Sequence record: PP069512
Direction: 5' to 3' (one strand)
Source of the DNA: Escherichia phage TR3
Length of the DNA stretch: 44,747 nt
Part shown: one piece after another, positions 1,704 to 36,368 of the stretch
How positions within the stretch are numbered: the first letter of the stretch is position 1
How the letters are laid out: each line of letters starts with the position of its first letter
Program-made: the position numbers and the translations under genes
Notes under the pieces: model-generated
What the model was told of the DNA's origin: nothing
The model's input: the letters and a program-made list of their open reading frames with translations, nothing else
Database searches by the model: none

Positions 1704-2071
1704 ATTACTCTCAAATCGAATCATTAATGCGAACGGGAATCAATATCTTTAGTGATGGCGATGGTACGTTTACCATGGAAACTGGTAAAGGTGGGGTGGA
1801 GATTGTCGATGGTGTCGAGGTTCCTGTATCTGGCGGCACTGCATTAATCAAGGGGCTGGTGAGGGAGATTAAAACCAGAGATATTGATGGTGAGTATATT
1901 CAGTTTGGCGATAAGCGTGGAATCTTCACTTCCGAAGTCCCAATCTTACAGGGCTACAGGATTATTGTGGACGATGAAACTTACACTGTAGTCGACCCGA
2001 GACCAGTGAAACCAACAGGTACTGTAGTCGCATACAGGCCAATTCTGAGGAGGATTGCTGCTTATGGCTAA
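1700..2071 (+). CDS. putative head-tail joining protein
   Basis: ATG 1700 overlaps upstream stop (ATGA); track start at 1688 is GTG. Confidence 0.55.
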   Translation: MNYSQIESLMRTGINIFSDGDGTFTMETGKGGVEIVDGVEVPVSGGTALIKGLVREIKTRDIDGEYIQFGDKRGIFTSEVPILQGYRIIVDDETYTVVDPRPVKPTGTVVAYRPILRRIAAYG

Positions 2072-2501
2072 TAATGTTGGTGGCTTAGCTACATTCACGA
2101 ACTCTATCAATGACTGGATTTCAAGAGCTGATGATGGTTTTTCTGAAATTGTTTCAGGCACTGTAATTAAAGCAGCTAACGCCATTGTTGATTTATCTCC
2201 TGTTGATACTGGTAGGTTTAAGGCTAACTGGCAGATTACAGCAAACTCACCAGCAGTACAGTCGTTAAATGATTACGACAAGACTGGCGGTGATACAAAA
2301 AGGTACCTTGCAAGACAAGCCAGAGCAGTAGCTAACTCACCAGCAACAAAGGTTATCTACATAACCAACAGGCTAGATTATGCGTCAGATCTTGAATACG
2401 GTGCATCGCAGCAAGCGCCAGCAGGTGTACTTGGTGTAGTTAATATCAGACTTGGTCGATACTTTGAGGAAGCCGTTGCTGAAGCGAGGAGTAAACGATA
2501 A
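2064..2501 (+). CDS. putative neck / tail completion protein
   Basis: ATG 2064 preceded by RBS GAGGAGG; overlaps upstream stop. Confidence 0.55.
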   Translation: MANNVGGLATFTNSINDWISRADDGFSEIVSGTVIKAANAIVDLSPVDTGRFKANWQITANSPAVQSLNDYDKTGGDTKRYLARQARAVANSPATKVIYITNRLDYASDLEYGASQQAPAGVLGVVNIRLGRYFEEAVAEARSKR

Positions 2502-2899
2502 TGCAGTATGAGCTATCTTTAGCATCAAGGAGGTTTGTGACTGATTTGGTTAAAACGTTTCCAGTCAGGTATCCAATCTCCTACGAAAACGTAGCATTCT
2601 CTCCTCCAAGTAATGGCGGTATGTGGCTGAAGTACGACTACACTGAGGCCGATACCGTAACCTATAGCTTGAGTCGCAAGTGCAAATACTATGTCGGCAT
2701 GGTTCAGGTCTCTGTATTTTTCTCACCAGGTGATGGTGTTGATAGCGCAAGGAGGTTGGCGAATCAATTGGCAGAATCAATGCTTGATGGTACAATGCTT
2801 GACACAGGCTACATTTATGAGGGCGGAGTAGTTCACCCGGTAGTGAAGTCAAAATCTGGCTGGTTTATTCCAGTTCGTTTCTATGTTCGTCTTGACTAA
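2501..2899 (+). CDS. putative tail terminator / completion protein
   Basis: TAATG overlap with upstream gene; lies immediately before major tail protein gene. Confidence 0.55.
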   Translation: MQYELSLASRRFVTDLVKTFPVRYPISYENVAFSPPSNGGMWLKYDYTEADTVTYSLSRKCKYYVGMVQVSVFFSPGDGVDSARRLANQLAESMLDGTMLDTGYIYEGGVVHPVVKSKSGWFIPVRFYVRLD

Positions 2900-2910
2900 A
2901 AGGAAAATAT

Positions 2911-3570
2911 ATGGCCCATCTCAGCAATGGCACCCAGGTCTTCGTAGAGGGCACTAGGGGTAATACTATCGACGTAACAGCAATTACCAATGCTGTTGCT
3001 CCTGTTTTAACTTTGTCCGACGCCACAGGTATTGCGCGCGGGGATTACCTGCTGTTCACCAGCTCAGCTTCAACACTTCTGGCTGATAAGCAAGTTCGTG
3101 TCACTGCGGTATCTGGTTCGGACGTAACTGTTGAAGGTATTGATACCTCCAACAACACTAAGTTTCCAGCCGGTTTAACTGGTGAAGTAGTTAAGATTCT
3201 TAGCTGGTTTGAAGTTCCTTGTGTTCAGGATGTATCCACTGACGGCGGCGAACAGCAGTTCGTTAACTTCCAGTGTTTATCTGATGACCGCGAGCAAAAG
3301 ATTCCAACCTATAAGTCTGCGGTAACTAACACCTACACGTTCGCGCACGAATACACCAACCCGGTATATCCGATTCTGCGTAACTATGATGAGTCTGGTC
3401 AGGTTGTTGCTATCCGTCTGTTCGTGCCTCGCGCTAGTGAGATGCGACTTCAGTCTGGCACTATCTCTTTCAACGACACCCCGAGCATTGGTGTTAACGA
3501 AATCGAAACGGTATCCATCGCGGTATCCATCCGTGGTAGGCTGAGTTCTGTGGCTTCTGAGCTAGTATAA
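2911..3570 (+). CDS. major tail protein
   Basis: 219 aa; position between neck genes and tail chaperone; RBS AAGGA; followed by strong terminator. Confidence 0.7.
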   Translation: MAHLSNGTQVFVEGTRGNTIDVTAITNAVAPVLTLSDATGIARGDYLLFTSSASTLLADKQVRVTAVSGSDVTVEGIDTSNNTKFPAGLTGEVVKILSWFEVPCVQDVSTDGGEQQFVNFQCLSDDREQKIPTYKSAVTNTYTFAHEYTNPVYPILRNYDESGQVVAIRLFVPRASEMRLQSGTISFNDTPSIGVNEIETVSIAVSIRGRLSSVASELV

Positions 3571-3842: not shown

Positions 3843-4091
3843 ATGAACAACGTTAAAAATATCATCAAACTTACTGCTGCTCTTGGTGCTTTCTACCTGG
3901 CAATTCAGATTGTCAACCCAACTGGTGGCGCAACCGCAAACTCTGATGCAATAAAGTATGAACATGAATTTAATAGTGCATATTCGCATTGTGAAAAAGT
4001 AGCTGGCGATAAGACAAACCAGATTCTGCACTATGGTCGCGAAGTGTGCACCGAAGTTGCTCACAACATTGTAAAAAACGAATCAAAGTAA
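3843..4091 (+). CDS. small protein with N-terminal signal-peptide-like segment (82 aa)
   Basis: Hydrophobic N-terminus LTAALGAFYLAIQIV; two Cys; sits in an insertion between major tail and chaperone genes. Confidence 0.5.
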   Translation: MNNVKNIIKLTAALGAFYLAIQIVNPTGGATANSDAIKYEHEFNSAYSHCEKVAGDKTNQILHYGREVCTEVAHNIVKNESK

Positions 4092-4126
4092 TATAATCAT
4101 TCAACATAAACAAAGGAGATAACGAG

Positions 4127-4441
4127 ATGGCAAAATTCAAACTTTCACTTAAGGCGCTTCCTGACTTTAAACTTCCAGTTAAGTTTCAGCTTGCGAATGG
4201 AGAGGACGCAGAAGTAGTCTTAACAGTTAAGCACAAGAAATCATCTGAGTTACAGGAGATTCTTAATCGTGAAAACTTCAGCACTAAGGAATTGATTAGC
4301 GAAATCTGCTCTGACTGGGATTTAGAAGAACCATTTAACGATGAGAACGTCGATGAGTTTGCAAACCTTTTCCCTGGTGCAGTTCCATCGCTAATGGATA
4401 GCTACATGAAAGCACTTGCAGGGCAGCGAGTAAAAAACTAA
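4127..4441 (+). CDS. tail assembly chaperone (lambda gpG-like)
   Basis: Acidic 104-aa protein between major tail and tape measure genes; RBS AAGGAG; slippery site at its 3' end. Confidence 0.7.
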   Translation: MAKFKLSLKALPDFKLPVKFQLANGEDAEVVLTVKHKKSSELQEILNRENFSTKELISEICSDWDLEEPFNDENVDEFANLFPGAVPSLMDSYMKALAGQRVKN

Positions 4442-10672: not shown

Positions 10673-13600
10673 ATGGCGCAGGACATTAAAATTTACGGCA
10701 GTAAGGGCGGGCAACCGAAGCAGCACCAGCCTGTAGAGCAACCTGACAACCTAATATCTGTAAACAAGGTTAAGGTTTTACTGGCCGTTTCTGATGGCGA
10801 GGTCGATAATTCGTTCTCACTAAAGGATCTGTATCTCGCTGACGTTCCGGTTCAGAATCAGAATGGAACATACAACTACGAGGGTGTAACGGCAGAATTT
10901 CGCCCAGGCACACAGAGTCAGGACTACATTGCCGGGCTAGAGGGCGCGAACTCAGAGGTGCAGGTTAACAGGGAAATATCCAACTCAACACCTTACATCA
11001 TTGCCGTTAACAACACTCAGCTATCAGCAATCAGGGTTAAGCTGTTCTGGCCTCGATTAATTAAACAAGAGAACAATGGCGACCTGAACGGAACATCTTG
11101 CGAGTATGCGATTGACCTGTCCGTTGATGGCGCTACATACACTGAATACACTCGAGGCGTGGCTAATGGCAAGACAACCAGCGGATACGACAGGAGCATT
11201 AGGGTTAATCTTCCTGCTGAGTTCTCGAGTGCGTTGGTGAGGGTTCGTAAGATCACGGCAGATTCAGAAAGTTCGACGCTGGTTAACGACATGCAAATTA
11301 CGACCTATCAGGAAGTAATCGACGCCAAGTTCCGCTACCCACTTACAGCGCTGGTTTACGTTGAGTTTAGTTCTGACCTCTTCCCTAACGGAATCCCGAC
11401 GATTTCAATCAAGAAGAGGTGGAAGTTGATTCGCGTTCCGACCAACTACAACCCAGAGACAAGGACTTATAGCGGAACCTGGAACGGAACATTTAAGATG
11501 GCTTACTCCAACAACCCAGCCTGGGTTCTTTACGATCTGGTAACGAATCAGCGTTACGGTCTGGACCAGCGTGAGCTTGGTATCACGATTGATAAGTGGG
11601 GTCTGTATGAAGCTGCGCAGTTCTGTGACCAGATGGTTCCAGATGGCAAGGGTGGGATGGAGCCTAGATACCTGTGCGACGTTGTTATTCAGCAGAAGGT
11701 TGAAGCGTATCAGGTAATCCGTGACATTTGCTCTATCTTCCGTGGGTTAACCTTTTATGATGGCGAGCAGATAGGGATTGTTGTCGATAAGCCACGCCAG
11801 CCTTCATACGTCTTTACCAACGACAACGTTGTTGATGGTCTGTTTAACCGCACGTTTGGTAGCGACAAGTCACTGTACACAGTCGCTAACGTTCAGTTTG
11901 ATGACGTTGAAAACTCATACCAACAGGATGTTGAGCCAGTATTCGAACTGGAGGCAACAAGGCGTTTCGGTTACAACCCGGTTGACCTGACAGCCATTGG
12001 GTGCACTCGCAGGAGTGAAGCAAACCGCCGTGGTCGATGGCTGTTAAAGACAAACCTCCGCAGTGAGACAGTCAGCTTCACTACAGGTCTGGAAGGGATG
12101 ATACCTATGATTGGTGAGGTGATTGCGGTTAATGACCAGGCCTGGTCTAGCAACTACACCCTCAACCTCTCTGGTCGCATCGAGTCAGTGAGTGGGTTAC
12201 AGGTTTTTGTGCCGTTTAAAATTGATGCTGCTGCTGGCGACAGGATTCTAATTAACAAGCCTGACGGCATGCCTGAGTACAGGACAATTGCATCTGTATC
12301 TGAAGATGGAATGACGCTGCAACTTAACACAGCTTTTAGCTTTACTCCTCAGCCGGATACTGTGTTCGCGATTGATAAGGAAAATCTGGCGCTTCAGCAG
12401 TATGTTGTTACCGGGATTCAAAAAGCTGATAGCGATGGAGATGATGCTTTTGGCTACACGATTACGGCAGTTGAGTACGACCCGAACAAATACGACGAGA
12501 TTGATTACGGCGTAAACATTCAGGACAGACCAACGTCAATCGTTGAACCAGATACATTACTGGCGCCAGAGAATGTTCAGGTGAGCAGCTACAGCAAGGT
12601 TGTGCAGGGTTTATCAGTTGAAACAATGATAATCACCTGGGATAAGGTTCAATACGCTAAGACCTACACAGTCCAATGGAGAAAGGAGAATGGAAACTGG
12701 ATTAACGTACCGCGCACAGCGAATACAGAGATTGATATCGAAGGTATTTACGCAGGAATTTATGACGTTAGGGTTCGCAGCGTATCAGATACTGAAAACG
12801 TGTCTGCCTGGTCTGGTATTGTAACGGTATCGCTAACTGGCAAGATTGGTCGCCCATCGGCACCTACGGTTATCACGGCGTCAACTGATGAAGTATTTGG
12901 TATCCGTGTTAAATGGGGATTCCCTGAAGGCTCTGGCGATACTGCTTACACTGAGCTTCAGCAGGTTCCAGATAATGGTGATGGTACTTACAATCCTGAT
13001 AATGCAAGTTTGCTTACGTTACTTCCTTATCCTGCCTACGAATACTGGCATACGCCAATTCAGCCAGGTAAGGTGATTTGGTATCGCGCAAGATTGATTG
13101 ACAGAATCGGAAATACCTCTGATTGGTCTAATTTCGCAAGAGGCATGAGTACTGACGACGCAAACATTATCAATGATTTCATCAAGGTTGATATTGAAGG
13201 TTCAGAAGGATTCAAATACCTCGAGCAGAATGCGATTCAAAAGAATCAGGACATTCAGAATCAAGCTGAGGCAATTATCGAGAACGCACTGGCTAATGAT
13301 GGCGATGTTCGCAGAATGACAAAGGAGAACGGCAAGCGTAAGGCTGAATATGTTCAGGCTGTGAATCTCATAGCCGATGAAACTCAGGCGCGCGTAGAGG
13401 CTCTAACGGCCCTTAAGGCGCAGATAGATGATGAAGTTGTAGCATCGATTACAGAAGTTCAGACTGCATTAGCCACAGAGACAGAAGCAAGGACTACTGC
13501 AGACACGACTCTATCAGCAAGACTTGGTGAAAATGAGGCGGCTTTAAACCAGAAGCTGGACGCATTCTCTAATGCCACATCGACTGGTGTGCAGTACGGA

Positions 13601-13990
13601 ATTAGTCTTGGCCTGAAATACAATGGACAGACTTATTCATCCGGTATGAGCATGGAGCTTGTCGGCACTGGTGACAATGTTCGTAGTCAATTCATTTTTG
13701 ACGCAAACAGATTCGCTATCAGTAACGGCATTGGTTCCGGCTCCGGTCAGTGGCAACTCCCCTTCGTTGTCGAGAATGGAAACGTAATCATCAAGAGTGC
13801 AGTTATCGGCGATGGCTCAATCAGTAACGCGAAGATTGGTAACTTTATTCAGTCTAATGACTGGGGTACAAATTCAGGCTGGAGGCTAGATAAGGATGAT
13901 GGATTGACGCTTAGGGGTTCCGATCGTGGCAAGATGAGAGTCCTGGACCGGAATGGAGTGGTTAGGGTAAAATTAGGATACTTGGGTTAA
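10673..13990 (+). CDS. central tail fiber / host specificity protein (lambda gpJ-like)
   Basis: 1105 aa; follows M/L/K/I homologs; fibronectin-III-like middle region; C-terminal receptor-binding-type domain. Confidence 0.85.
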   Translation: MAQDIKIYGSKGGQPKQHQPVEQPDNLISVNKVKVLLAVSDGEVDNSFSLKDLYLADVPVQNQNGTYNYEGVTAEFRPGTQSQDYIAGLEGANSEVQVNREISNSTPYIIAVNNTQLSAIRVKLFWPRLIKQENNGDLNGTSCEYAIDLSVDGATYTEYTRGVANGKTTSGYDRSIRVNLPAEFSSALVRVRKITADSESSTLVNDMQITTYQEVIDAKFRYPLTALVYVEFSSDLFPNGIPTISIKKRWKLIRVPTNYNPETRTYSGTWNGTFKMAYSNNPAWVLYDLVTNQRYGLDQRELGITIDKWGLYEAAQFCDQMVPDGKGGMEPRYLCDVVIQQKVEAYQVIRDICSIFRGLTFYDGEQIGIVVDKPRQPSYVFTNDNVVDGLFNRTFGSDKSLYTVANVQFDDVENSYQQDVEPVFELEATRRFGYNPVDLTAIGCTRRSEANRRGRWLLKTNLRSETVSFTTGLEGMIPMIGEVIAVNDQAWSSNYTLNLSGRIESVSGLQVFVPFKIDAAAGDRILINKPDGMPEYRTIASVSEDGMTLQLNTAFSFTPQPDTVFAIDKENLALQQYVVTGIQKADSDGDDAFGYTITAVEYDPNKYDEIDYGVNIQDRPTSIVEPDTLLAPENVQVSSYSKVVQGLSVETMIITWDKVQYAKTYTVQWRKENGNWINVPRTANTEIDIEGIYAGIYDVRVRSVSDTENVSAWSGIVTVSLTGKIGRPSAPTVITASTDEVFGIRVKWGFPEGSGDTAYTELQQVPDNGDGTYNPDNASLLTLLPYPAYEYWHTPIQPGKVIWYRARLIDRIGNTSDWSNFARGMSTDDANIINDFIKVDIEGSEGFKYLEQNAIQKNQDIQNQAEAIIENALANDGDVRRMTKENGKRKAEYVQAVNLIADETQARVEALTALKAQIDDEVVASITEVQTALATETEARTTADTTLSARLGENEAALNQKLDAFSNATSTGVQYGISLGLKYNGQTYSSGMSMELVGTGDNVRSQFIFDANRFAISNGIGSGSGQWQLPFVVENGNVIIKSAVIGDGSISNAKIGNFIQSNDWGTNSGWRLDKDDGLTLRGSDRGKMRVLDRNGVVRVKLGYLG

Positions 13991-13999
13991 TAAATTATT

Positions 14000-14029
14000 G
14001 GCGGGTAAATCCCGCCTAAGGTTTTATTT
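14000..14029 (+). terminator. intrinsic terminator
   Basis: GGCGGG-TAAAT-CCCGCC hairpin then T-rich tract. Confidence 0.6.
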
Positions 14030-14031
14030 GT

Positions 14032-14403
14032 ATGACTGGTTTGTATGGTTGGGAGATGTACGATTCTGCGGGGCGGCTTGTAGCTGACAATAGCAGCATA
14101 ATGAGCAGGAGGCTATTCACTTATAGCGTGCCACTGATAAGGGCTTTATCTGCAAACATACCATGGGAAGTCTCATTTAATGTTAACTTCTCAAATGGAA
14201 CGCCTTATGCGCATTGCAATACCAGAACAGGGGTGGTGGTCCCTGCATCTACTAACTGGTATCCAGTATCACCTGATATAATAATATCTGGAAATGCAGT
14301 TACACTCAGGTATACAAACAGGCATGTTTCCTATCCGGACGATCTTGGGTACATACTTGCAGTTGGTGGTGTTGATGTTCACTTAGGAGTTTATAATAAA
14401 TGA
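14032..14403 (+). CDS. hypothetical protein (possible tail-fiber-associated)
   Basis: 123-aa ORF downstream of J in an AT-rich segment; no clear RBS, start uncertain. Confidence 0.4.
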   Translation: MTGLYGWEMYDSAGRLVADNSSIMSRRLFTYSVPLIRALSANIPWEVSFNVNFSNGTPYAHCNTRTGVVVPASTNWYPVSPDIIISGNAVTLRYTNRHVSYPDDLGYILAVGGVDVHLGVYNK

Positions 14404-15197
14404 GTGATTATGGTGTTGAACTAATAAATGACTATGGTTTAAAGGTTGCTGACGCAGAGGATGTAAATTACGTACTAAGAAGTTCTGGTACATTTAATGA
14501 TTCAAATTTCTACTCATATGCAAACTCCACATCTGCAATTAGCCTCATGACCACAGGAATGAATTCGCCTCTTCTATTTCTAAAGATGAACGAAAGTAGG
14601 TCAAGGATAAGCCAGAAGCCTGGAGTTAACAAAATATCACCTGATTTTGTTAACCCAAATACCACAATAACAAAGACAAGCATAGACCTATTCAAGTGGT
14701 GGAACATACCGCTAGGAACTGTAGAGTATTACATATTTGACAAGTGGATCCCGCCAGAAAGAAGTGATTATGGAATGCAGATATTTAATGAATCTGGTTC
14801 TATAATCTTTGATTCTGGCTGGTACTTCCTCAAACTTAGGGATGTGCTATGGCTTGATCCAAGTTATCCAAACCATTCAGATCAGGAAGGTGGTAGTAAC
14901 TGGACTAACGTCGGGAATATTGTCAACTCCGCGAACGTATCAAACTCAGCATTATCAATGCCTGTTGGTAGGGGGTGGGTTGAAACATCATTGCAGGGTG
15001 GGTACTACTATAATGAATGCTGTCACCTTGACTCATCCGGTAATCTATTTATATCCATAATACCTACAGGTATATACCTTGATGTTTCACCAACTGGCGG
15101 CTGGGTTGGCAATATGAGGACGCAAGTTATGGTTTGCGACACCTCGAGGCTGCCTCTTAATTACAATCCAGTTGAGATAAGAAAGGAAAACAAATAA
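14400..15197 (+). CDS. hypothetical protein (265 aa, possible receptor-binding accessory)
   Basis: ATGA overlap with upstream ORF; RBS AGGAG; AT-rich, Asn/Ser/Tyr-rich. Confidence 0.5.
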   Translation: MSDYGVELINDYGLKVADAEDVNYVLRSSGTFNDSNFYSYANSTSAISLMTTGMNSPLLFLKMNESRSRISQKPGVNKISPDFVNPNTTITKTSIDLFKWWNIPLGTVEYYIFDKWIPPERSDYGMQIFNESGSIIFDSGWYFLKLRDVLWLDPSYPNHSDQEGGSNWTNVGNIVNSANVSNSALSMPVGRGWVETSLQGGYYYNECCHLDSSGNLFISIIPTGIYLDVSPTGGWVGNMRTQVMVCDTSRLPLNYNPVEIRKENK

Positions 15198-15201
15198 AAA
15201 T

Positions 15202-15220
15202 AAGGCCCTTAATGGGCCTT
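15202..15220. terminator. bidirectional terminator between convergent genes
   Basis: AAGGCCC-TTAAT-GGGCCTT hairpin flanked by A-tract and T-tract; contains stop codon of lipoprotein gene. Confidence 0.6.
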
Positions 15221-15394
15221 CTTGTTAAAACAATATCCAGCTGGTAAAACCGAATAAAGATTTTGATTTACCTCTCCATTGCTGTATTCACAACCTCTAA
15301 TTGTAACTGAGTAGTCACTGATAAGAACTATAGTTCTTTCACCGCCTGAACAACCAGCTAAAATCATTGCAGTGATAACGATTAATTTTTTCAT
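15209..15394 (-). CDS. small lipoprotein (candidate Cor/Llp-like superinfection exclusion protein)
   Basis: Signal peptide with lipobox LAGC (MKKLIVITAMILAGCSGG); 3 further Cys in 46-aa mature part; next to receptor-binding genes. Confidence 0.6.
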   Translation of the reverse strand: MKKLIVITAMILAGCSGGERTIVLISDYSVTIRGCEYSNGEVNQNLYSVLPAGYCFNKKAH

Positions 15395-15395
15395 C

Positions 15396-15500
15396 TTAGA
15401 ACCCTTTAAAGTTGCTAGCCAGCATCAGAAGCCATACGAAGAAACCAGTAGCTGCTACACCGAAGATTGCAGAGATTACGTTAGTAGTTAAGTTAGTCAT
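15396..15500 (-). CDS. small single-pass membrane peptide (34 aa)
   Basis: Not in ORF track; MTNLTTNVISAIFGVAATGFFVWLLMLASNFKGF; RBS AAGGA 7 nt upstream; its stop abuts lipoprotein start. Confidence 0.45.
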   Translation of the reverse strand: MTNLTTNVISAIFGVAATGFFVWLLMLASNFKGF

Positions 15501-15583
15501 TTTGTATTCCTTAGTAAGTGTGTTTCGTTTCGATGGAAAGATAATACCGCATCCTTGCGATAAGTGTTTAGCAATTAGTGCTA

Positions 15584-15853
15584 TTAGTGAATATCCTCAC
15601 AGCCAGGAATGGACTTAACATTGTAATGCCGATAAGCGAATATCAAGTTAAGAGCCTGCTCGACCGTGCATTTAAGGGCGCCAGAGATAATAAATGAAGA
15701 CTCAGTGATGTGATTTATTAACTCATTTCTGACAGGGTCGTCATCTGCTAGTAACTCTGCGCGCTTAACAAAAAGAGCGTTGTTTACCAGGATTGTCACA
15801 ACCTTTTCATTGAGCTCTTTCTTCGCTTTTGCAATCTCTTTCTCGTAGTTCAT
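15584..15853 (-). CDS. hypothetical protein (89 aa), first gene of leftward lipoprotein cassette
   Basis: ORF with AAGGCGG-like RBS. Confidence 0.5.
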   Translation of the reverse strand: MNYEKEIAKAKKELNEKVVTILVNNALFVKRAELLADDDPVRNELINHITESSFIISGALKCTVEQALNLIFAYRHYNVKSIPGCEDIH

Positions 15854-15995
15854 CTTATACCGCCTTGTTTTCGATTTGCATTACGCTATTAACTGACATC
15901 ATAACATTCCGATTCTGCTGCTGAGTAGTGGTTACTACATGCTGCATTTTATTGCAGTCACTTTAAATGACCACATCTTATTGTGGTCATTAGTG

Positions 15996-16685
15996 CTACT
16001 TATCTTTAAGTAGCAACTTGATATCAATTCCTAGATTATTCTCAATCAATCCAGTCAGTGCACCTACCTTTTCCTTAAGTGCGAAGCACTGTGTTTCATA
16101 CTTGAATCTCAACTCCATCTCATCAGAGCGACTTGACCAGCACTGCCGAGCCTCGCACGCTAGCTCATCAATCTTCTTGTCAAGTTCCTTATCTGACAGG
16201 GTGATTTCAGTAATTCGCTGCTCAGCTACGATTCTCTGGATCAAGTGAGCATTCTGCGCTTGCAGGTATCCATTCTTCATTCTTTCCTCTTTAAGTTCAT
16301 CAATGCTTACCATCTGACTGATTACTTCCGCTTGCTTGTTGATGGTGCTTTGCATTTCTTTAAGCTTAGCAAGCACTGCGCGACGAACGAACTTTGATTC
16401 TCTCATCCCAATCAAAAGCATCTGTTCCATATTGAGCACTGGTGAGTTGATTGACTTTCTATAACCTCCTCTACCCTCACTCTTGATTACGAAACTTTCG
16501 TAGTCAAACTCAAACCCTTCAAGCTCATCCTCTATTCTCTCAACAAAGTCATTGTGTCGAACATTGGACTCCCCAGCGATCAACATCGCTGGGTTGATAA
16601 CTTCATTTAAAAACTGATAACTATTCATTTTTACGTCTTCATTAAGTAATGCTAAGTTCATTTTCGTCTCTCTTTTGTTTTTCAT
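15996..16685 (-). CDS. hypothetical regulatory-like protein with coiled-coil C-terminus (start may be 16661)
   Basis: 229-aa ORF downstream of promoter box at 16791-16810; function not recognisable. Confidence 0.55.
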   Translation of the reverse strand: MKNKRETKMNLALLNEDVKMNSYQFLNEVINPAMLIAGESNVRHNDFVERIEDELEGFEFDYESFVIKSEGRGGYRKSINSPVLNMEQMLLIGMRESKFVRRAVLAKLKEMQSTINKQAEVISQMVSIDELKEERMKNGYLQAQNAHLIQRIVAEQRITEITLSDKELDKKIDELACEARQCWSSRSDEMELRFKYETQCFALKEKVGALTGLIENNLGIDIKLLLKDK

Positions 16686-16765
16686 TCCTAAGATTTGAGG
16701 AGTTAACTAAGTTCTTTTCCTCAATTTGAGGAGGAGTTGACAGCACCATTGCCGCCACGCGCCTA

Positions 16766-16810
16766 AATATACCTAAAGATAGCCAGTTGTCTTTAGCAAA
16801 TCGTGCTATT
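16766..16810 (-). promoter_or_regulatory. phage promoter box (minus strand), 22-bp spacer, TATATT
   Basis: rc of 16791-16810 = AATAGCACGATTTGCTAAAG; -10-like rc of 16766-16771. Confidence 0.5.
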
Positions 16811-16839
16811 TATCGACAATTTCACCATAAATCACAGTT

Positions 16840-17001
16840 ACACGTAACCGATGTAACTCGATGTATACAATCTCATCCGCGGGAAATGATATACGCGCTG
16901 TTACGCCAATTTACGCATTGGTTACATTAAAATATCTATATATATCAACCTTTTACTCTTATTATTATTATTATATATATTACTGTGTATATCATGTAAC
17001 T
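16840..17001. repeat. non-coding control element, copy A (ACACGTAACCG box, GTTACGC repeats, (ATT)5(TA)4 microsatellite, TCATGTAACT)
   Basis: Paralogous to 34915..35070 with conserved spacing (152 vs 146 bp between the two anchor boxes). Confidence 0.6.
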
Positions 17002-17229
17002 ACTTCTATAGAGTGTTCCGGTTATAATTTTAATATCATGTGGATTTATACAGTATTGCGCGGCAGCTATACCAATGCACCCTCAGCGAGAAACGGCATA
17101 CACGATATACACGATGTTTACATTGAGCTATGGCTGGCTTGAGATGCCAAAAAGCGTAACTAGTGCCAATGCCTACACGAAATTACAAAGATTCACGCGT
17201 AAACTTAAATCAACGATTGGCAAAACCAA

Positions 17230-17257
17230 TTGGACTGGTTACGGTGCTGAATATATA
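17230..17257 (+). promoter_or_regulatory. candidate sigma70 promoter (TTGGAC-N16-TATATA)
   Basis: Canonical spacing; about 40 nt upstream of ATG 17297. Confidence 0.35.
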
Positions 17258-17296
17258 GTTACCTCATCGAAAGCAATCAACCAGAGAGATATATAA

Positions 17297-17491
17297 ATGA
17301 CCTACTACATTATCAAAGAGAAAAACAACGCACTGTTCGGCGACTGCTACTTTGGAGGAGAGGCCGGTTACACCACGGATAAGAACGAAGCAGACAGATT
17401 CGAGACCAAAGGAGAAGCCCGCGATGTACTGACCGGTTACTTCACTGAAGAAGATTTGAAGTCTGTTAAAGTAGTTAAGGTCAAGGGGTGA
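17297..17491 (+). CDS. hypothetical protein (64 aa)
   Basis: First ORF of rightward recombination operon. Confidence 0.5.
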   Translation: MTYYIIKEKNNALFGDCYFGGEAGYTTDKNEADRFETKGEARDVLTGYFTEEDLKSVKVVKVKG

Positions 17492-23318: not shown

Positions 23319-23792
23319 TTACTCTTTAGCTTTTCGTGCTGCCTCGTTGGCGGCCTTAATCTTACGCCATGATCGACACTCTGGCTTGGTGGCTAATTCA
23401 GCTTCGGTAACCACGCGCAGCATATGACGCTTTTTGCAACGTAGTGTAAGAGGCTTGCCGTTACCGTCGAATTGCAGGTCTGGTCGGCAGAATGTAGCTC
23501 GAAAACCTTCTCCGGTTCGTTTGTAGTAGTTGTGCGACAGCTGAGCACCACGCGCAGAAATCATACCACGATTGAACCATTCTTCTACAGTTTGGGGAGT
23601 TACCTTTAACTGCTTTGCGATGTTTGCCTTTGTTCCGAAGAAATCAAGGAGCATCTCAAGCCGTGCGCGTAACCCTGCCCTTACCTCGTCTTTTAAAACG
23701 TAGTAGCCTGAAGGTCGTTTCCGTTGTTTTTTGTCTTCAGTGCGGATGGTTCCGTTATTACCGTTAGTGGTTCGCTTGTCAACTGCACTCAT
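23319..23792 (-). CDS. basic HTH DNA-binding protein
   Basis: HTH-like segment TKANIAKQLKVTPQTVEEWF; ATG 23792 with RBS GAGGT (track start 23828 lacks RBS). Confidence 0.55.
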   Translation of the reverse strand: MSAVDKRTTNGNNGTIRTEDKKQRKRPSGYYVLKDEVRAGLRARLEMLLDFFGTKANIAKQLKVTPQTVEEWFNRGMISARGAQLSHNYYKRTGEGFRATFCRPDLQFDGNGKPLTLRCKKRHMLRVVTEAELATKPECRSWRKIKAANEAARKAKE

Positions 23793-23804
23793 TTTGTTAC
23801 CTCG

Positions 23805-23848
23805 ATAGCATTTTTTGTTAAAAGTCATTCTTATTTGATGGTAGTATT
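23805..23848 (+). promoter_or_regulatory. phage promoter box, variant (ATAGCATTTT-TTGTTA, about 21-bp spacer, TAGTAT)
   Basis: Box 23805-23820 in divergent region upstream of helicase gene. Confidence 0.4.
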
Positions 23849-29312: not shown

Positions 29313-29867
29313 ATGAAAAAGTTAATCATCCTTAATGGACCCCCAGGTGCTGGAAAAGATACAGTTGCAGATATCATTGTTAAACTTGGAATTTGCAGGG
29401 ATAAGGTTTCTTTCAAATCACCTATGTTTAATGTGGCTAAGAGCATGCTATCAAGCGATGAGTTTGATGGATTTATTAAGAATTACGATGATCGAGAGTA
29501 CAAAGAATCACCACATGAATTTCTTGGTGGAATGACTGTTCGTCAATTTATGATTTGGATTAGCGAATCAGTGATGAAGCCAGTTTTTGGTGATGAAGTT
29601 TTCGGTAAAAGGCTAGCTCAGTCTCTTGGCAATGGTTGCCACATCTGTTCAGATGGTGGATTTGCAAGTGAAATTGAGCCACTAATTGAAAGTGGTGTTG
29701 AGGTTACATTGGTTAGGCTTCATAGACCTGGTTACACTTTCGAAGGAGATAGTAGGTCATACATTAGCGGCCTCTGCGCAAGGGAAATTGATATTGATGT
29801 TATTGAAGGTGATATTAAAATAACTACAGAAAAAGTGATTGATGCAATAAATAGCACGAATCGCTAA
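29313..29867 (+). CDS. P-loop nucleoside-monophosphate-kinase-like protein
   Basis: N-terminal Walker A NGPPGAGKDT, adenylate/dNMP kinase-like. Confidence 0.65.
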   Translation: MKKLIILNGPPGAGKDTVADIIVKLGICRDKVSFKSPMFNVAKSMLSSDEFDGFIKNYDDREYKESPHEFLGGMTVRQFMIWISESVMKPVFGDEVFGKRLAQSLGNGCHICSDGGFASEIEPLIESGVEVTLVRLHRPGYTFEGDSRSYISGLCAREIDIDVIEGDIKITTEKVIDAINSTNR

Positions 29868-29894
29868 ACAATCGCCACAGCAATTAGGTATAAT
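29851..29894 (+). promoter_or_regulatory. phage promoter box (ATAGCACGAATCGCTA, 22-bp spacer, TATAAT)
   Basis: Box overlaps last codons and TAA stop of kinase gene. Confidence 0.5.
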
Positions 29895-29925
29895 CACCAA
29901 ATCGAAAACAACAGAGGATTCAAAA

Positions 29926-30099
29926 ATGACTAAACTATACTGCGTGAAAAACAACTCAAAGACGCTTCCGTTTACTGAGAATCAGCCATACAGCGGCGAG
30001 CATCTTGGTAGCGGTTACTACAAGATTTATGGCGACGATATGACTCACATCCTTGCGCCGATTGATGGCTCTTTGGTGGAATTTATTATCGCAGATTAA
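29926..30099 (+). CDS. hypothetical protein (57 aa)
   Basis: Not in track; RBS AGAGGA 8 nt upstream; followed by strong terminator. Confidence 0.45.
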   Translation: MTKLYCVKNNSKTLPFTENQPYSGEHLGSGYYKIYGDDMTHILAPIDGSLVEFIIAD

Positions 30100-30125: not shown

Positions 30126-30151
30126 GGGGGGCCTTTTGGCTCCCCTTTTTT
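30126..30151 (+). terminator. intrinsic terminator
   Basis: GGGGGGCC-TTTT-GGCTCCCC hairpin then TTTTTTGT. Confidence 0.7.
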
Positions 30152-30227
30152 GTGCTTACAATCCGAACTGGCCTACTGTATTATATTTACACTATCTATT
30201 GACAAATTAGGATTTAAAGGTGATCAC

Positions 30228-30443
30228 ATGAGGGAAGTACTTAACGCCGCCACGGCATCAACTGGCGGGGCTGCTGTAACTGGCGCCGCAACTGGTCAAA
30301 TCACAGTCGCAATAATCAGCCTTGTAGCTCTTATCGTTTTTGGGTTATGGGGGTCTTACTGGAAGTTTAAGGATAGCCAGGCGATTCGACGAGCACTTGA
30401 ATCAGGAGACTTAAAAACAGCAATCAAGATAAGGAGTAAGTAA
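30228..30443 (+). CDS. holin (pinholin-like)
   Basis: 71 aa; Ala/Gly-rich weak first TMD plus strong TMD ITVAIISLVALIVFGLWGSYW; basic C-terminus; RBS AAGGTG; track start TTG 30150 lies in terminator. Confidence 0.6.
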   Translation: MREVLNAATASTGGAAVTGAATGQITVAIISLVALIVFGLWGSYWKFKDSQAIRRALESGDLKTAIKIRSK

Positions 30444-30928
30444 TGAAGCAAAGGCTGATAATTAGTGCAGCGACGGCAGCGGCAATATACATCGCAGCGC
30501 CGGTTATTGAGCTTGTTGAGGGTGTAGAGTACAGGCCATATATGGATATTGCTGGCATACCTACGGTTTGTTCTGGTGTGACTGGCCCAGATGTTATTGT
30601 TGGTAAAGTATACGGCGCAAGGGAGTGCCGTAACTTGCTGGAGAGGCACATTAAGATTCATGGTAAGTATGTGCAGGATGCAGTTACCTATCCAATTTCA
30701 CCAGAAACAAGGGCGGCGTTAATCAGCTTTAGTTATAACGTTGGCGGTTCTGCAATGAGGAAGTCAACGGCTGTACGGCTGATTAACCAGGGTAAAGTTG
30801 AGCAGGGTTGCAAGGCTCTCGGGATGTGGAACAAGGCTCGAATAAATGGCAAGCTGAAGGTAGTCAAGGGTCTCGTAAACAGGCGTAACGAGGAGATTAA
30901 ATTGTGCTTAAGCGGGGTTGGTAAATGA
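30443..30928 (+). CDS. SAR endolysin (T4-lysozyme-like muramidase)
   Basis: N-terminal signal-anchor-release segment LIISAATAAAIYIAAPVIELV; catalytic E-x8-D-x5-T; RBS AAGGAG. Confidence 0.8.
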   Translation: MKQRLIISAATAAAIYIAAPVIELVEGVEYRPYMDIAGIPTVCSGVTGPDVIVGKVYGARECRNLLERHIKIHGKYVQDAVTYPISPETRAALISFSYNVGGSAMRKSTAVRLINQGKVEQGCKALGMWNKARINGKLKVVKGLVNRRNEEIKLCLSGVGK

Positions 30929-31311
30929 AGACTGTATTAATTGCTGCGGCAATTCTTCTTTCTGGTTGTTCGGCAACATCAGCACTGACCGGATTGATTG
31001 GCAGTAAGCCAGAGATTAGCGCCCAGGCTGGAGCGGAGAACAATAAGGTTGGCGTAGGTCTGACAAACAAGGTTGATTCAAGTTCCAATGCAAAGGCTGA
31101 GTTGAAGAACTCTAATGTTGACACTCTTGATAGCTCAAGCGGTAAGAAGACTTCTGATAACTCAATCAAAGCGTCAACAATCACAGCTGAGAAGATTGAA
31201 ATCACAAACAATGATTCTTCTGCAATCCCGTGGGTTGGAAGTGGAATTATGTTGTGCATCATCATCATTCTGCTTTTGGTAATATTCAGGAAAAACAAAA
31301 AAGCCCCGTAA
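30925..31311 (+). CDS. unimolecular spanin (u-spanin)
   Basis: N-terminal lipoprotein signal with lipobox LSGC; Ser/Asn-rich periplasmic region; C-terminal TMD IMLCIIIILLLVIF; ATGA-coupled to endolysin. Confidence 0.75.
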   Translation: MKTVLIAAAILLSGCSATSALTGLIGSKPEISAQAGAENNKVGVGLTNKVDSSSNAKAELKNSNVDTLDSSSGKKTSDNSIKASTITAEKIEITNNDSSAIPWVGSGIMLCIIIILLLVIFRKNKKAP

Positions 31312-33868: not shown

Positions 33869-33914
33869 ACTATACAACAAAAGCCCCGAAGGGCTTTAGC
33901 AATTCGTGCTATTT
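33869..33914 (-). promoter_or_regulatory. phage promoter box (minus strand), 22-bp spacer, TATAGT
   Basis: rc of 33895-33914 = AAATAGCACGAATTGCTAAA; spacer contains hairpin AAAGCCC-TTCG-GGGCTTT. Confidence 0.5.
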
Positions 33915-36328: not shown

Positions 36329-36368
36329 CACGAATTGCTAAACAATCGCCGGAGAAATCCGGCATAAT
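36326..36368 (+). promoter_or_regulatory. phage promoter box (ATAGCACGAATTGCTA, 22-bp spacer, CATAAT)
   Basis: TAG of box is stop of upstream gene; spacer holds hairpin GCCGGA-GAAA-TCCGGC. Confidence 0.5.

What the first reader, a model, noticed from the sequence alone, without database searches (positions are those of the whole stretch)
15209..15853. Leftward three-gene cassette ending in a small lipoprotein next to receptor-binding genes (candidate superinfection exclusion)
The cassette is an 89-aa protein, an unannotated 34-aa membrane peptide, and a 61-aa lipoprotein with lipobox LAGC and three more Cys in its 46-aa mature part. It is transcribed opposite to and immediately downstream of the J-like and fiber-associated genes. 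Position and architecture resemble the Cor/Llp lipoproteins that block the phage receptor in T1-like and T5-like phages.
Basis: partly seen in the sequence, partly recalled or inferred. Interest (0 to 1): 0.6.

Follow-up and report, generated by a model that had tools for sequence, protein, structure and literature searches.

The report
Receptor-blocking lipoprotein of a T1-like phage
Next to its receptor-binding genes, this FepA-using T1-like coliphage carries a small outer-membrane lipoprotein that most likely shuts off the phage's own receptor after infection; this kind of gene is already known, although this copy has no recognisable relatives and is untested.

Summary
The three leftward ORFs exist exactly as described: 89 aa, 34 aa and a 61-aa lipoprotein precursor. 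One detail is wrong: the lipoprotein has two further Cys, not three.

The window is an Rtp-like Drexlerviridae phage. This region is 99.9% identical to phage IME253, whose receptor was shown experimentally to be FepA, with TonB dependence.

The ORFs are not one cassette.
- **Conserved unit:** the 34-aa membrane peptide plus the lipoprotein. It has its own stereotyped promoter and leader, a 1-nt stop/start gap, and a strong terminator shared with the convergent receptor-binding genes.
- **89-aa gene:** a soluble three-helix bundle that belongs to the upstream anti-repressor unit. It occurs with three different lipoprotein types and is missing from phage Rao1, which has the same lipoprotein.

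The mature lipoprotein lies inside the recombination block that also carries the end of gpJ and both receptor-binding genes, so it is probably their cognate FepA blocker, acting like Cor or Llp. It is a sequence orphan. It fails NCBI's curated Cor model and lacks the Cor/Llp cysteine positions, so it is an analogue rather than a proven family member.

The idea that these loci carry exclusion factors is already published. The 34-aa peptide is conserved in about 159 phage records and is often unannotated. It is not tied to any receptor type and its function is unknown.

The parts
10673..13990 (+). GpJ-like central tail tip protein (1105 aa). About the last 100-135 nt belong to the receptor-specific swapped block.
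   Evidence: Pfam FNIII-A_GpJ, Phage-tail_3 and Phage_Tail_Tip. Other Rtp-like phages align only up to about 13854-13898.
14032..14403 (+). 123-aa protein of the receptor-binding locus, first gene after gpJ.
   Evidence: ORF. It co-occurs with the 265-aa protein in every relative found (tblastn, loci). Its position corresponds to T1 gp32.
14400..15197 (+). 265-aa candidate receptor-binding protein, FepA type.
   Evidence: phrog_4062 at 3e-53 and a weak hit to phrog_425, the T1 gp31-like 'membrane associated protein'. It is 100% identical in IME253, whose receptor is FepA (PMC6499177).
15202..15220 (.). GC-rich hairpin with a U-run on the minus strand. It serves as the terminator of the leftward operon and probably of the convergent receptor-binding genes too.
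   Evidence: Terminator scan. Folding gives -13.2 and -12.7 kcal/mol, z -2.4 and -3.0.
15209..15394 (-). 61-aa lipoprotein precursor with signal MKKLIVITAMILAG|C and a 47-aa mature form carrying Cys35 and Cys55. Candidate FepA-blocking exclusion lipoprotein.
   Evidence: Named 'Lipoprotein' by UniRef and BFVD. phrog_1119 (Cor) at 7e-5. No NCBIfam Cor hit. Orphan in two large protein searches.
15396..15500 (-). 34-aa single-pass hydrophobic peptide. Its stop codon lies 1 nt before the lipoprotein start codon.
   Evidence: Matches in 159 phage records, mostly full length. Length, start and stop are conserved, with shared motif FGV.ATGF..W...LA..F(K/N)GF.
15501..15584 (-). Promoter and leader of the 34-aa/lipoprotein operon. 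Elements: inverted-repeat motif ATAGCACTAATTGCTAAACA (15565-15584, its last six bases the -35-like TAAACA), -10 TATTAT (15541-15546), conserved leader CCATCGAAACGAAACA (15521-15536), and ribosome-binding site AAGGA (15508-15512).
   Evidence: Hexamers and leader are conserved in five phages while the spacer varies (alignment A1). The motif occurs 7-9 times in the window against 0 expected. The leader recurs at two other copies at the same 48-nt offset.
15584..15853 (-). 89-aa soluble three-helix-bundle protein. An accessory gene of the upstream unit, not part of the receptor or exclusion module.
   Evidence: AF2 pLDDT 88, helices 3-33, 40-60 and 64-77. No family or fold match. Distribution.
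15996..16685 (-). 229-aa KilA/anti-repressor-like protein, first gene of the upstream leftward unit.
   Evidence: phrog_8235 anti-repressor at 1.3e-82. Annotated as KilA or anti-repressor in IME253 and phiA2-1.
16790..16809 (-). Second copy of the inverted-repeat promoter motif, upstream of the KilA-like and 89-aa genes.

Best explanation
The 61-aa ORF most likely encodes an outer-membrane lipoprotein that works like T1 Cor and T5 Llp, but against FepA, the receptor of this phage.

Proposed mechanism:
1. Early in infection, host RNA polymerase transcribes a short leftward operon of about 335 nt. It runs from a phage-stereotyped promoter at about 15541-15584 to the terminator at 15202-15220.
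2. The 34-aa peptide is translated first. The lipoprotein follows by coupling, because only 1 nt separates the stop and start codons.
3. The precursor is exported, lipidated at Cys15 and cleaved by signal peptidase II. With Ser at +2, the Lol pathway sorts it to the inner leaflet of the outer membrane.
4. By analogy with the FhuA-Llp crystal structure, the 47-aa beta-rich mature domain binds the periplasmic face or plug of FepA and locks the extracellular loops in a state the phage's receptor-binding protein cannot bind.
5. This prevents superinfection and stops progeny being lost on cell debris. It should also block other FepA users, such as phage H8, colicins B and D, and ferric enterobactin.

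What is shown: the ORFs, the signals, the operon anatomy, the mosaic linkage to the receptor-binding genes, and FepA use by the near-identical phage.

What is inferred: lipidation, the target and the mechanism.

The 34-aa peptide is a separate, widely conserved small membrane protein that is co-expressed but not receptor-specific. The 89-aa protein is an unrelated cytoplasmic accessory gene.
For: - **Lipoprotein signal.** It is canonical, carries an outer-membrane-type +2 residue, and is rare in the window.
- **Position.** It matches that of cor in T1, Sd1, JulesPiccard, RobRod40 and MM01: leftward and directly abutting the receptor-binding genes after gpJ.
- **Recombination boundaries.** LptD-type Rtp-like phages align up to about 13854-13898, inside the 3' end of gpJ. 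Cor-type phages such as Sd1 and Opt-79 resume at 15354, which is the lipobox. The mature lipoprotein, both receptor-binding genes and the gpJ C-terminal end therefore travel as one block of about 1.45 kb.
- **Receptor.** The 265-aa protein is 100% identical to that of IME253. The IME253 receptor is FepA, shown by knockout plus complementation, and infection needs TonB (PMC6499177).
[quoted passage not shown] BASEL places cognate exclusion proteins in these loci (PMC8594841; PMC11990801).
- **Weak similarity to Cor.** phrog_1119 at 7e-5. BLASTP against T1 Cor gives 42% identity over 65 columns. For the mature part alone, p is about 0.008 by shuffling, with collinear motifs ERT, (D/E)YSV and VL.AGY.F.
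- **Expression signals.** Own promoter and leader conserved across phages, a strong terminator, and a ribosome-binding site.
- **Not a spanin.** A complete lysis cassette with its own spanin-like lipoprotein lies at 30150-31311.
Against: - No experiment on this protein was found in the papers searched, and none can be run here.
- It is a sequence orphan. Only identical copies turned up among 5.8 billion clustered proteins, 1.84 billion cluster representatives and 50,697 phage records. There is no evolutionary signal of constraint on the mature domain.
- The curated Cor model NF047972 does not hit it, while T1 Cor scores 55.8 bits. A profile comparison on the mature part gives only 14% probability.
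- Its Cys residues, at mature positions 21 and 41, are not where the Cor/Llp disulfide lies.
- The single-sequence AF2 model is weak (pLDDT 62), and fold searches found neither Llp nor Cor.
- Relatives of the receptor-binding pair have no lipoprotein within 2.5 kb. These are Klebsiella VAC2 and VLCpiS8a, Brenneria BREN6, and IMG/VR loci at 43-75% identity. The pairing is therefore not universal.
- FepA-dependent T5-like phage H8 encodes nothing similar.
Confidence: 0.6

Rival explanations
1. The lipoprotein is a diverged Cor that still targets FhuA or another non-cognate transporter. It would exclude competitor phages such as T1, T5 and phi80, rather than protect against phages that use FepA.
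For: - Its signal peptide, and the DNA upstream, are about 84% identical to Cor-type phages.
- The mature part shows weak, collinear similarity to Cor, with p about 0.008.
- Published hints of decoupling between receptor-binding protein and Llp/Cor type exist in some phages (PMC12980165; a BtuB phage carrying Cor in PMC13164509).
Against: - The mature domain lies inside the block exchanged together with the FepA-type receptor-binding genes.
- The curated Cor model does not hit it.
- The invariant Cor residues C25, C73, M20/P21 and the C-terminal SF.YVSE..F..H.C are absent.
Confidence: 0.1
2. One reading: the 89-aa, 34-aa and 61-aa genes form one three-gene functional cassette for exclusion.
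For: - The three genes share strand and order in the window, IME253, phiA2-1 and ZL19.
- The same order recurs in metagenomic contigs L020-L022, but there with a FhuA-type Cor.
- No strong terminator separates them; the hairpin at 15545-15562 has z = -0.8. Read-through is therefore possible.
Against: - Rao1 has the identical 34-aa and lipoprotein genes but no 89-aa gene.
- The 89-aa gene occurs with LptD-type (Rtp45-like) and FhuA-type lipoproteins, always directly after a Rha/KilA-like gene.
- Sd1, JulesPiccard, RobRod40 and Rtp lack it.
- It has no signal peptide or membrane segment and is predicted to be a soluble helical bundle.
- A separate promoter copy sits between it and the 34-aa gene.
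Confidence: 0.05
3. The lipoprotein has an envelope role unrelated to the receptor. Examples are a lysis or spanin accessory, a modifier of the outer membrane or lipopolysaccharide, or a general moron. Its position next to the receptor-binding genes would then be a by-product of that site being a recombination hot spot.
For: - Weak hit to a spanin family, phrog_6073, at 1e-4, and tblastn hits to o-spanins at E 4-9.
- The region between the early promoters and gpJ clearly collects accessory genes such as KilA-like, Dcm and the 89-aa gene.
- Relatives of the receptor-binding pair lack the lipoprotein.
Against: - A complete holin, endolysin and spanin cassette lies elsewhere.
- The mature part has one Pro, is predicted to be beta-rich, and has no i-spanin partner. 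The 34-aa peptide has no periplasmic domain.
- The spanin hits cover mostly the signal peptide.
- Every characterised lipoprotein at this position in T1-like, T5-like and lambdoid phages is a receptor blocker (PMC9586334, PMC13164509).
Confidence: 0.15
4. The 61-aa ORF is not expressed, or it is a decaying remnant.
For: All five known copies are 100% identical because the host phages are near-identical in this region. There is therefore no independent evidence of purifying selection. phiA2-1 does not annotate it.
Against: It has an intact canonical signal peptide and lipobox, a ribosome-binding site, coupling to a conserved upstream gene, a conserved promoter and a strong terminator. It is annotated in IME253, ZL19 and Rao1.
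Confidence: 0.05

Closest known systems
Cor, the exclusion lipoprotein of phages T1, phi80, N15 and HK022 (NCBIfam NF047972, phrog_1119)
   Same: - Small outer-membrane lipoprotein precursor with a Cys-Ser start to the mature form.
- Leftward gene directly abutting the two receptor-binding genes after gpJ.
- In several Drexlerviridae (Sd1, JulesPiccard, RobRod40, MM01) it is preceded by the same 34-aa peptide gene and the same promoter and leader.
- Weak collinear motifs ERT, (D/E)YSV and VL.AGY.F.
   Different: - Mature part of 47 aa against about 57 aa.
- Does not reach the NCBIfam Cor model.
- Lacks the invariant Cys pair and the conserved C-terminal half.
- The phage uses FepA, not FhuA, so the predicted target differs.
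Llp of phage T5 (PDB 8A60, FhuA-Llp complex)
   Same: Same kind of protein and the same genomic logic: a lipoprotein gene next to the receptor-binding protein gene. Llp's target FhuA is a TonB-dependent transporter, the same class as FepA. The mechanism proposed here is borrowed from the Llp structure.
   Different: No detectable sequence similarity. The Cor profile, by contrast, does find Llp at E 0.004. The fold comparison was uninformative. The Llp Cys11-Cys58 disulfide positions are not matched.
Rtp45-type phage lipoprotein (Pfam PF24052) of the LptD-dependent relatives Rtp and AugustePiccard
   Same: Occupies the equivalent slot in the closest relatives of this phage. It uses the same promoter, leader and even the first four codons (MTNL) that here start the 34-aa peptide.
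   Different: No homology: there is no PF24052 hit for the window protein, against 1.3e-37 for Rtp45, and the Smith-Waterman shuffle test gives p 0.21. In Rtp the receptor-binding gene is also leftward and there is no 34-aa gene.
Small integral membrane protein of Webervirus (for example Klebsiella phage Sanco gp056), as comparator for the 34-aa peptide
   Same: Same length of 34 aa and the same motif FGV.ATGF..W...LA..FKGF.
   Different: It is encoded between the VRR-NUC and Dam genes, not next to a lipoprotein. In SRT8 the homologue lies upstream of the holin region. No function is known for any member.

Membership tests
Cor exclusion lipoprotein (NF047972 / phrog_1119) | Signal peptidase II signal with a lipobox, and a non-Asp +2 residue for outer-membrane sorting | tested here: met
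   MKKLIVITAMILAG|CS. Only 3 such signals occur among all start positions of the window's 274 ORFs of at least 40 aa.
Cor exclusion lipoprotein (NF047972 / phrog_1119) | Score above the cut-off of the curated family model | tested here: not met
   NCBIfam NF047972 gives no hit at E<=1 for the window protein. T1 Cor, as positive control, scores 55.8 bits against a cut-off of 31.
Cor exclusion lipoprotein (NF047972 / phrog_1119) | Detectable homology of the mature domain | tested here: inconclusive
   phrog_1119 at 7e-5 and 24 bits, including the signal peptide. hhalign of the Cor profile against the mature 47 aa gives probability 14% and E 0.002 over 25 columns. Shuffle tests: 40 of 5000 for the HMM and 15 of 2000 for Smith-Waterman.
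Cor exclusion lipoprotein (NF047972 / phrog_1119) | Invariant Cys pair near the N- and C-termini of the mature protein (shared with the Llp Cys11-Cys58 disulfide) | tested here: not met
   Cor alignment A2 has invariant C25 and C73. The Llp disulfide is described in PMC9586334. The window protein has Cys35 and Cys55, mature positions 21 and 41.
Cor exclusion lipoprotein (NF047972 / phrog_1119) | Gene located directly after the receptor-binding genes downstream of gpJ, on the opposite strand | tested here: met
Cor exclusion lipoprotein (NF047972 / phrog_1119) | Blocks the phage receptor when expressed (exclusion phenotype) | not testable with these tools
   This needs expression in E. coli followed by plating and adsorption assays.
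T5 Llp | Sequence or fold similarity to Llp (8A60 chain B) | tested here: inconclusive
   phmmer against PDB sequences finds no Llp hit. Foldseek of a low-confidence model (pLDDT 62) gives no significant match.
Rtp45-type phage lipoprotein (PF24052) | Match to Pfam PF24052 | tested here: not met
   No hit for the window protein. Rtp45 scores 1.3e-37.
o-spanin (Rz1-like) | Lipoprotein paired with an i-spanin within the lysis cassette | tested here: not met
   Holin, endolysin and a spanin-like lipoprotein lie at 30150-31311. There is no i-spanin next to 15209-15394, and the 34-aa peptide has no periplasmic domain.
   The 89-aa gene is absent from Rao1 and present with other lipoprotein types. 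The 34-aa gene occurs without any lipoprotein in Webervirus and SRT8.

The most novel reading that the evidence does not exclude
The conserved, often unannotated 34-aa single-pass peptide is a second, receptor-independent component of exclusion. It is co-transcribed and translationally coupled with whichever receptor-blocking lipoprotein the phage carries. It would act at the inner membrane, for example by interfering with TonB-ExbBD energisation or with DNA passage. On this reading, T1-like phages would use a two-layer block made of an outer-membrane lipoprotein plus an inner-membrane micropeptide.
Probability: 0.1. Interest if true: 0.6.

Novelty: new member of a known kind. Interest (0 to 1): 0.3.

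Why it matters
If confirmed, this would be a receptor-blocking lipoprotein aimed at FepA in a T1-like phage. I found no report of one, and this copy has a mature domain unrelated by sequence to Cor, Llp or Rtp45.

That would support the published proposal that small phage lipoproteins can jam many TonB-dependent transporters. It would also give a compact 47-residue FepA inhibitor, of use for studies of enterobactin uptake and colicins B and D, and for designing phage cocktails that avoid cross-exclusion.

The practical annotation lessons are modest:
- The lipoprotein gene is missing from one of the five records and is called hypothetical in the others.
- The 34-aa gene is missing from most records.

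The general concept is already in the literature, so this fills a gap rather than coming as a surprise.

Tried and rejected
- **Homologue searches for the lipoprotein.** The word-indexed search of 5.8 billion proteins, exhaustive phmmer against 1.84 billion representatives and tblastn against 50,697 phage records found only identical copies. Two phmmer hits were a eukaryotic protein with 16 CUB repeats and another repeat protein; I judged both spurious.
- **Family libraries.** Pfam, NCBIfam and PADLOC gave nothing meaningful for any of the three proteins. Rfam found nothing in 14900-17300.
- **Structure of the lipoprotein.** Single-sequence AF2 gave pLDDT 62 and a three-stranded beta meander. 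Foldseek against the PDB and BFVD returned only the protein itself. I did not fold it with a Cor alignment, because that would be circular.
- **Structure of the 89-aa protein.** The three-helix bundle is confident, but it has no significant fold match.
- **Divergent lipoprotein copies by synteny.** Relatives of the 265-aa and 123-aa pair in GenBank phages and IMG/VR carry no lipoprotein nearby.
- **Comparison with FepA-dependent T5-like phage H8.** The record is an unannotated draft. No similar ORF and no clear Llp were found.
- **YncD-type phage IME347.** The analogous slot holds a protein with a Sec-type signal, not a lipoprotein.
- **Terminator between the 89-aa and 34-aa genes.** The hairpin at 15545-15562 is not better than shuffled sequence (z -0.8), so I do not claim it.
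- The 34-aa peptide was too short for the search for homologous proteins. The Rtp genome paper (Wietzorrek 2006) is not held, so statements about it rest on my memory and on its citation in PMC13164509.
Full report
**1. What the window is**

The region 14000-17000 is 99.9% identical to Escherichia phages vB_EcoS-IME253 (Drexlerviridae, Braunvirinae, Rtpvirus) and phiA2-1, which was isolated on an E. coli fhuA deletion strain. It is 99% identical to ZL19 and Rao1 over the parts they share. Further left, in gpJ, identity to IME253 falls: it is 93.1% over 11500-15700. The window is therefore a mosaic relative, not the same isolate.

IME253 was shown to need FepA, by spontaneous mutants, a clean deletion and complementation, and to need TonB (PMC6499177). 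The BASEL paper cites this result (PMC8594841).

**2. The observation**

The three minus-strand ORFs are there as stated.

*The 61-aa product* starts MKKLIVITAMILAG|CSGG. This is a textbook signal peptidase II signal with Ser at +2, which predicts Lol-dependent sorting to the outer membrane. A relaxed lipoprotein pattern hits only three start positions in the six-frame ORF set of the window. One of the others is the spanin-like lipoprotein of the lysis cassette.
- UniRef and BFVD already call the identical ZL19 and IME253 protein 'Lipoprotein'.
Cys are at 15, 35 and 55, so there are two besides the lipidated one.

*The 34-aa product*, MTNLTTNVISAIFGVAATGFFVWLLMLASNFKGF, is one hydrophobic helix.

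*The 89-aa product* has no signal peptide or membrane segment.

Convergent with these are gpJ (Pfam GpJ domains) and two genes of 123 and 265 aa. A stable hairpin followed by a U-run sits between the two directions, overlapping the lipoprotein stop codon.

**3. Transcription units**

An alignment of the region upstream of the 34-aa gene from the window, Rao1, Sd1, JulesPiccard and Rtp shows the typical signature of a real promoter. The spacer between the hexamers varies, while these elements are conserved:
- a block ATAGCAC.AAT.GCTAAA(C/G)A, whose end is a -35-like TAAACA;
- a -10 (TATTAT, TACTAT or TATAGT) 18 nt further on;
- a nearly invariant leader, CCATCGAAACGAAACA..ACTTA.T.AGGAATACAAA-ATG.

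The first block contains a perfect inverted repeat, TAGCA-N5-TGCTA. It occurs 7 times in the window at up to 3 mismatches, against 0 in 100 shuffles, and 9 times at up to 4 mismatches. Each copy lies in front of a non-structural gene or gene group. Three copies share the leader at the same 48-nt offset. One copy (15565-15584) serves the 34-aa and lipoprotein genes. Another (16790-16809) serves the KilA-like gene and, behind it, the 89-aa gene.

From memory, phage Rtp was reported to have about ten conserved inverted repeats, proposed as operators of the regulator Rtp52. These are very likely the same elements. I could not read that paper.

The stop codon of the 34-aa ORF is 1 nt from the lipoprotein ATG (TAA-G-ATG), and an AAGGG lies inside the end of the peptide gene, so translational coupling is likely.

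**4. The three genes do not belong together**

*The 89-aa gene.*
- It is missing from Rao1, which has identical 34-aa and lipoprotein genes.
- It is present at 91% identity in AugustePiccard, an LptD-dependent phage with an Rtp45-type lipoprotein, and in a 49-kb metagenomic phage contig of the same type.
- In three metagenomic contigs it precedes a 34-aa gene and a FhuA-type Cor.
- In those other contexts it starts 1 nt after a Rha- or KilA-like DNA-binding gene.
- AF2 predicts a confident three-helix bundle (pLDDT 88) with no informative fold match.
- It is an accessory cytoplasmic protein of unknown function, independent of receptor type.

*The 34-aa gene.*
- It is real and conserved. It matches 159 phage records, mostly full length.
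- It keeps exactly 34 codons with start and stop across sequences that differ at up to 47 of 102 nt, with conservative replacements and the shared motif FGV.ATGF..W...LA..F(K/N)GF.
- In E. coli and Shigella phages of Braunvirinae and Rogunavirinae (Sd1, Sf12, JulesPiccard, RobRod40, MM01, Opt-79) it sits directly upstream of a FhuA-type cor.
- In Klebsiella Webervirus it lies between the VRR-NUC and Dam genes. In SRT8 it lies upstream of the holin region. T1 has none next to cor.
- In Rtp the lipoprotein Rtp45 itself starts with the peptide's first four codons, MTNL, behind the same leader.
- The peptide is therefore co-expressed with the lipoprotein here, but it is neither receptor-specific nor obligatorily linked to a lipoprotein.

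**5. The lipoprotein and its link to the receptor-binding genes**

LptD-type Rtp-like phages align with the window up to about 13854-13898, roughly 100-135 nt before the end of gpJ. Cor-type phages align again from 15354, which is exactly the lipobox. Rtp-type phages resume at the MTNL start.

The block between these points holds the C-terminal end of gpJ, the 123-aa and 265-aa proteins, the terminator and the mature lipoprotein. It is thus a single exchangeable module of about 1.45 kb. This is the best evidence here that the mature lipoprotein is functionally tied to the FepA-type receptor-binding proteins.

The pairing is not universal. Relatives of the receptor-binding pair have no lipoprotein within 2.5 kb. 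These are Klebsiella VAC2 and VLCpiS8a at 47-49% identity, Brenneria BREN6 at 30%, and five IMG/VR loci at 43-75%.

**6. Is it a Cor or Llp family member?**

The protein is a sequence orphan: only identical copies were found in three very large searches.

| Test | Result |
|---|---|
| phrog_1119 (Cor) | E 7e-5, 24 bits, includes the signal peptide |
| BLASTP against T1 Cor | 42% identity over 65 columns |
| hhalign, Cor profile against mature 47 aa | probability 14% |
| Shuffle tests on the mature part | p about 0.008 |
| NCBIfam Cor model NF047972 | no hit; T1 Cor scores 55.8 bits |
| Cor profile against PDB sequences | finds T5 Llp at E 0.004 |
| Window protein against PDB sequences | no Llp hit |
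| Pfam PF24052 (Rtp45 type) | no hit |

Much of the PHROG and BLASTP similarity is in the signal peptide, which is shared through recombination. The invariant Cor Cys pair and the C-terminal half are absent.

The AF2 model is weak (pLDDT 62, three beta strands) and finds nothing by fold.

Conclusion: the protein has the anatomy and genomic position of a Cor/Llp-type protein and may be a very diverged Cor, but membership is not established.

**7. Rivals considered**

- A spanin role is unlikely, because holin, endolysin and a spanin-like lipoprotein form a complete cassette at 30150-31311.
- A diverged Cor still aimed at FhuA cannot be excluded, but it fits the module boundaries poorly.
- A spurious ORF is unlikely given the signal peptide, ribosome-binding site, coupling, promoter and terminator.

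**8. Mechanism proposed**

Shown here:
- the anatomy of a short leftward operon with its own promoter and terminator;
- a lipoprotein precursor with an outer-membrane sorting residue;
- physical linkage to the receptor-binding genes;
- FepA and TonB dependence of the near-identical phage (from the literature).

Inferred: after lipidation and Lol transport, the 47-residue domain binds the periplasmic side of FepA and, as Llp does with FhuA (PMC9586334), holds the transporter in a state whose surface loops no longer accept the phage. This would prevent superinfection and loss of progeny on debris. I give this 0.6.

**9. Novelty**

Several things are already published:
- that these loci in small siphoviruses carry cognate exclusion factors (PMC8594841, PMC11990801);
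- a dedicated analysis of cor cassettes in Drexlerviridae (PMC13164509);
- Llp analogues in FepA-dependent T5-like phages (PMC12980165).

This is therefore a new, sequence-unrelated member of a known kind, and it is untested.

The more original by-products are the widespread, mostly unannotated 34-aa membrane peptide gene and the clear split of the 'cassette' into two units. Interest is modest, at 0.3.

Noticed in passing
window 15565-15584(-), 16790-16809(-), 18461(+), 22272(+), 26301(+), 29851(+), 33893-33912(-), 36325(+), 37242(+): A stereotyped promoter family. The motif aATAGCACGAATTGCTAAAcA contains a perfect inverted repeat, TAGCA-N5-TGCTA. It is followed about 18 nt later by a -10-like hexamer. 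At three sites (15584, 26301, 33912) it is also followed by the leader (C/T)CATCGAAACGAAA(C/G)A, exactly 48 nt from the motif start. There are 7 copies at up to 3 mismatches against 0 expected. These are probably the operators proposed for the Rtp52-type regulator. Its presumed homologue here is 23319..23828(-), which has a weak P22_Cro helix-turn-helix hit.
   Followed up: partly
window 33880-33895(-) and 36345-36362(+), inside promoter spacers: Several promoters of that family carry a GC-rich hairpin between the -35 and -10 elements. Examples are GCCCTTCGGGGCTTTTGTTG at the 33912 copy, where a T-run follows, and CGCCGGAGAAATCCGGC at the 36325 copy. They look like terminators embedded in the next promoter. 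The analogous hairpin at 15545-15562 is not significant.
   Followed up: no
window 11500-14000 compared with 14000-17000: Identity to IME253 and phiA2-1 is 99.9% over 14000-17000 but only 93.1% over 11500-15700. The gpJ body of this phage therefore has a different origin from its receptor module, which makes the genome mosaic.
   Followed up: no
window 17075..17296(+) and 17297..17491(+): Two adjacent ORFs of 73 and 64 aa match the N- and C-terminal halves of one PHROG family, phrog_35664. In Rtp (rtp46) and JulesPiccard the same sequence is a single ORF of 122-138 aa. The gene is either split here or fused there.
   Followed up: no
L024-L027 (IMG/VR UViGs), match at 2133-3286 of each locus: The closest relatives of the FepA-type receptor-binding pair outside the IME253 group (65% and 75% identity) lie in IMG/VR contigs. 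There they are followed by a 700-aa fibre gene on the same strand, with no lipoprotein nearby. Host and receptor are unknown.
   Followed up: partly
L029 (phage IME347, YncD receptor) 29715..30053(-): At the position equivalent to cor, the YncD-dependent phage encodes a 112-aa protein with what looks like a signal peptidase I signal (MKKIIAAIMFTASFNAMA|F) rather than a lipobox. If it is the exclusion factor, it would be a soluble periplasmic one.
   Followed up: no
L007 (phage Rtp) 1688..1966(-): The Rtp45 lipoprotein starts with MTNL behind the same leader and ribosome-binding site that start the 34-aa peptide in other phages. It appears that a recombination junction lies inside the first codons, and that the peptide gene was replaced.
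   Followed up: partly
L030 (phage SRT8) 1501-1593(+); L031 (MM01) 2001-2102(+); L003 (Sd1) 4052-4156(-): Homologues of the 34-aa peptide are present but unannotated in several GenBank records. In SRT8 the gene lies just upstream of the holin region, a third genomic context for this small gene.
   Followed up: partly
window 15209..15394(-), phmmer hits P0002 and P0003: The exhaustive protein search returned a 1996-aa protein with 16 CUB domains (15 weak matched stretches, summed E 1.6e-17) and a 612-aa repeat protein. I judged both to be artefacts of repeats, not homologues.
   Followed up: yes
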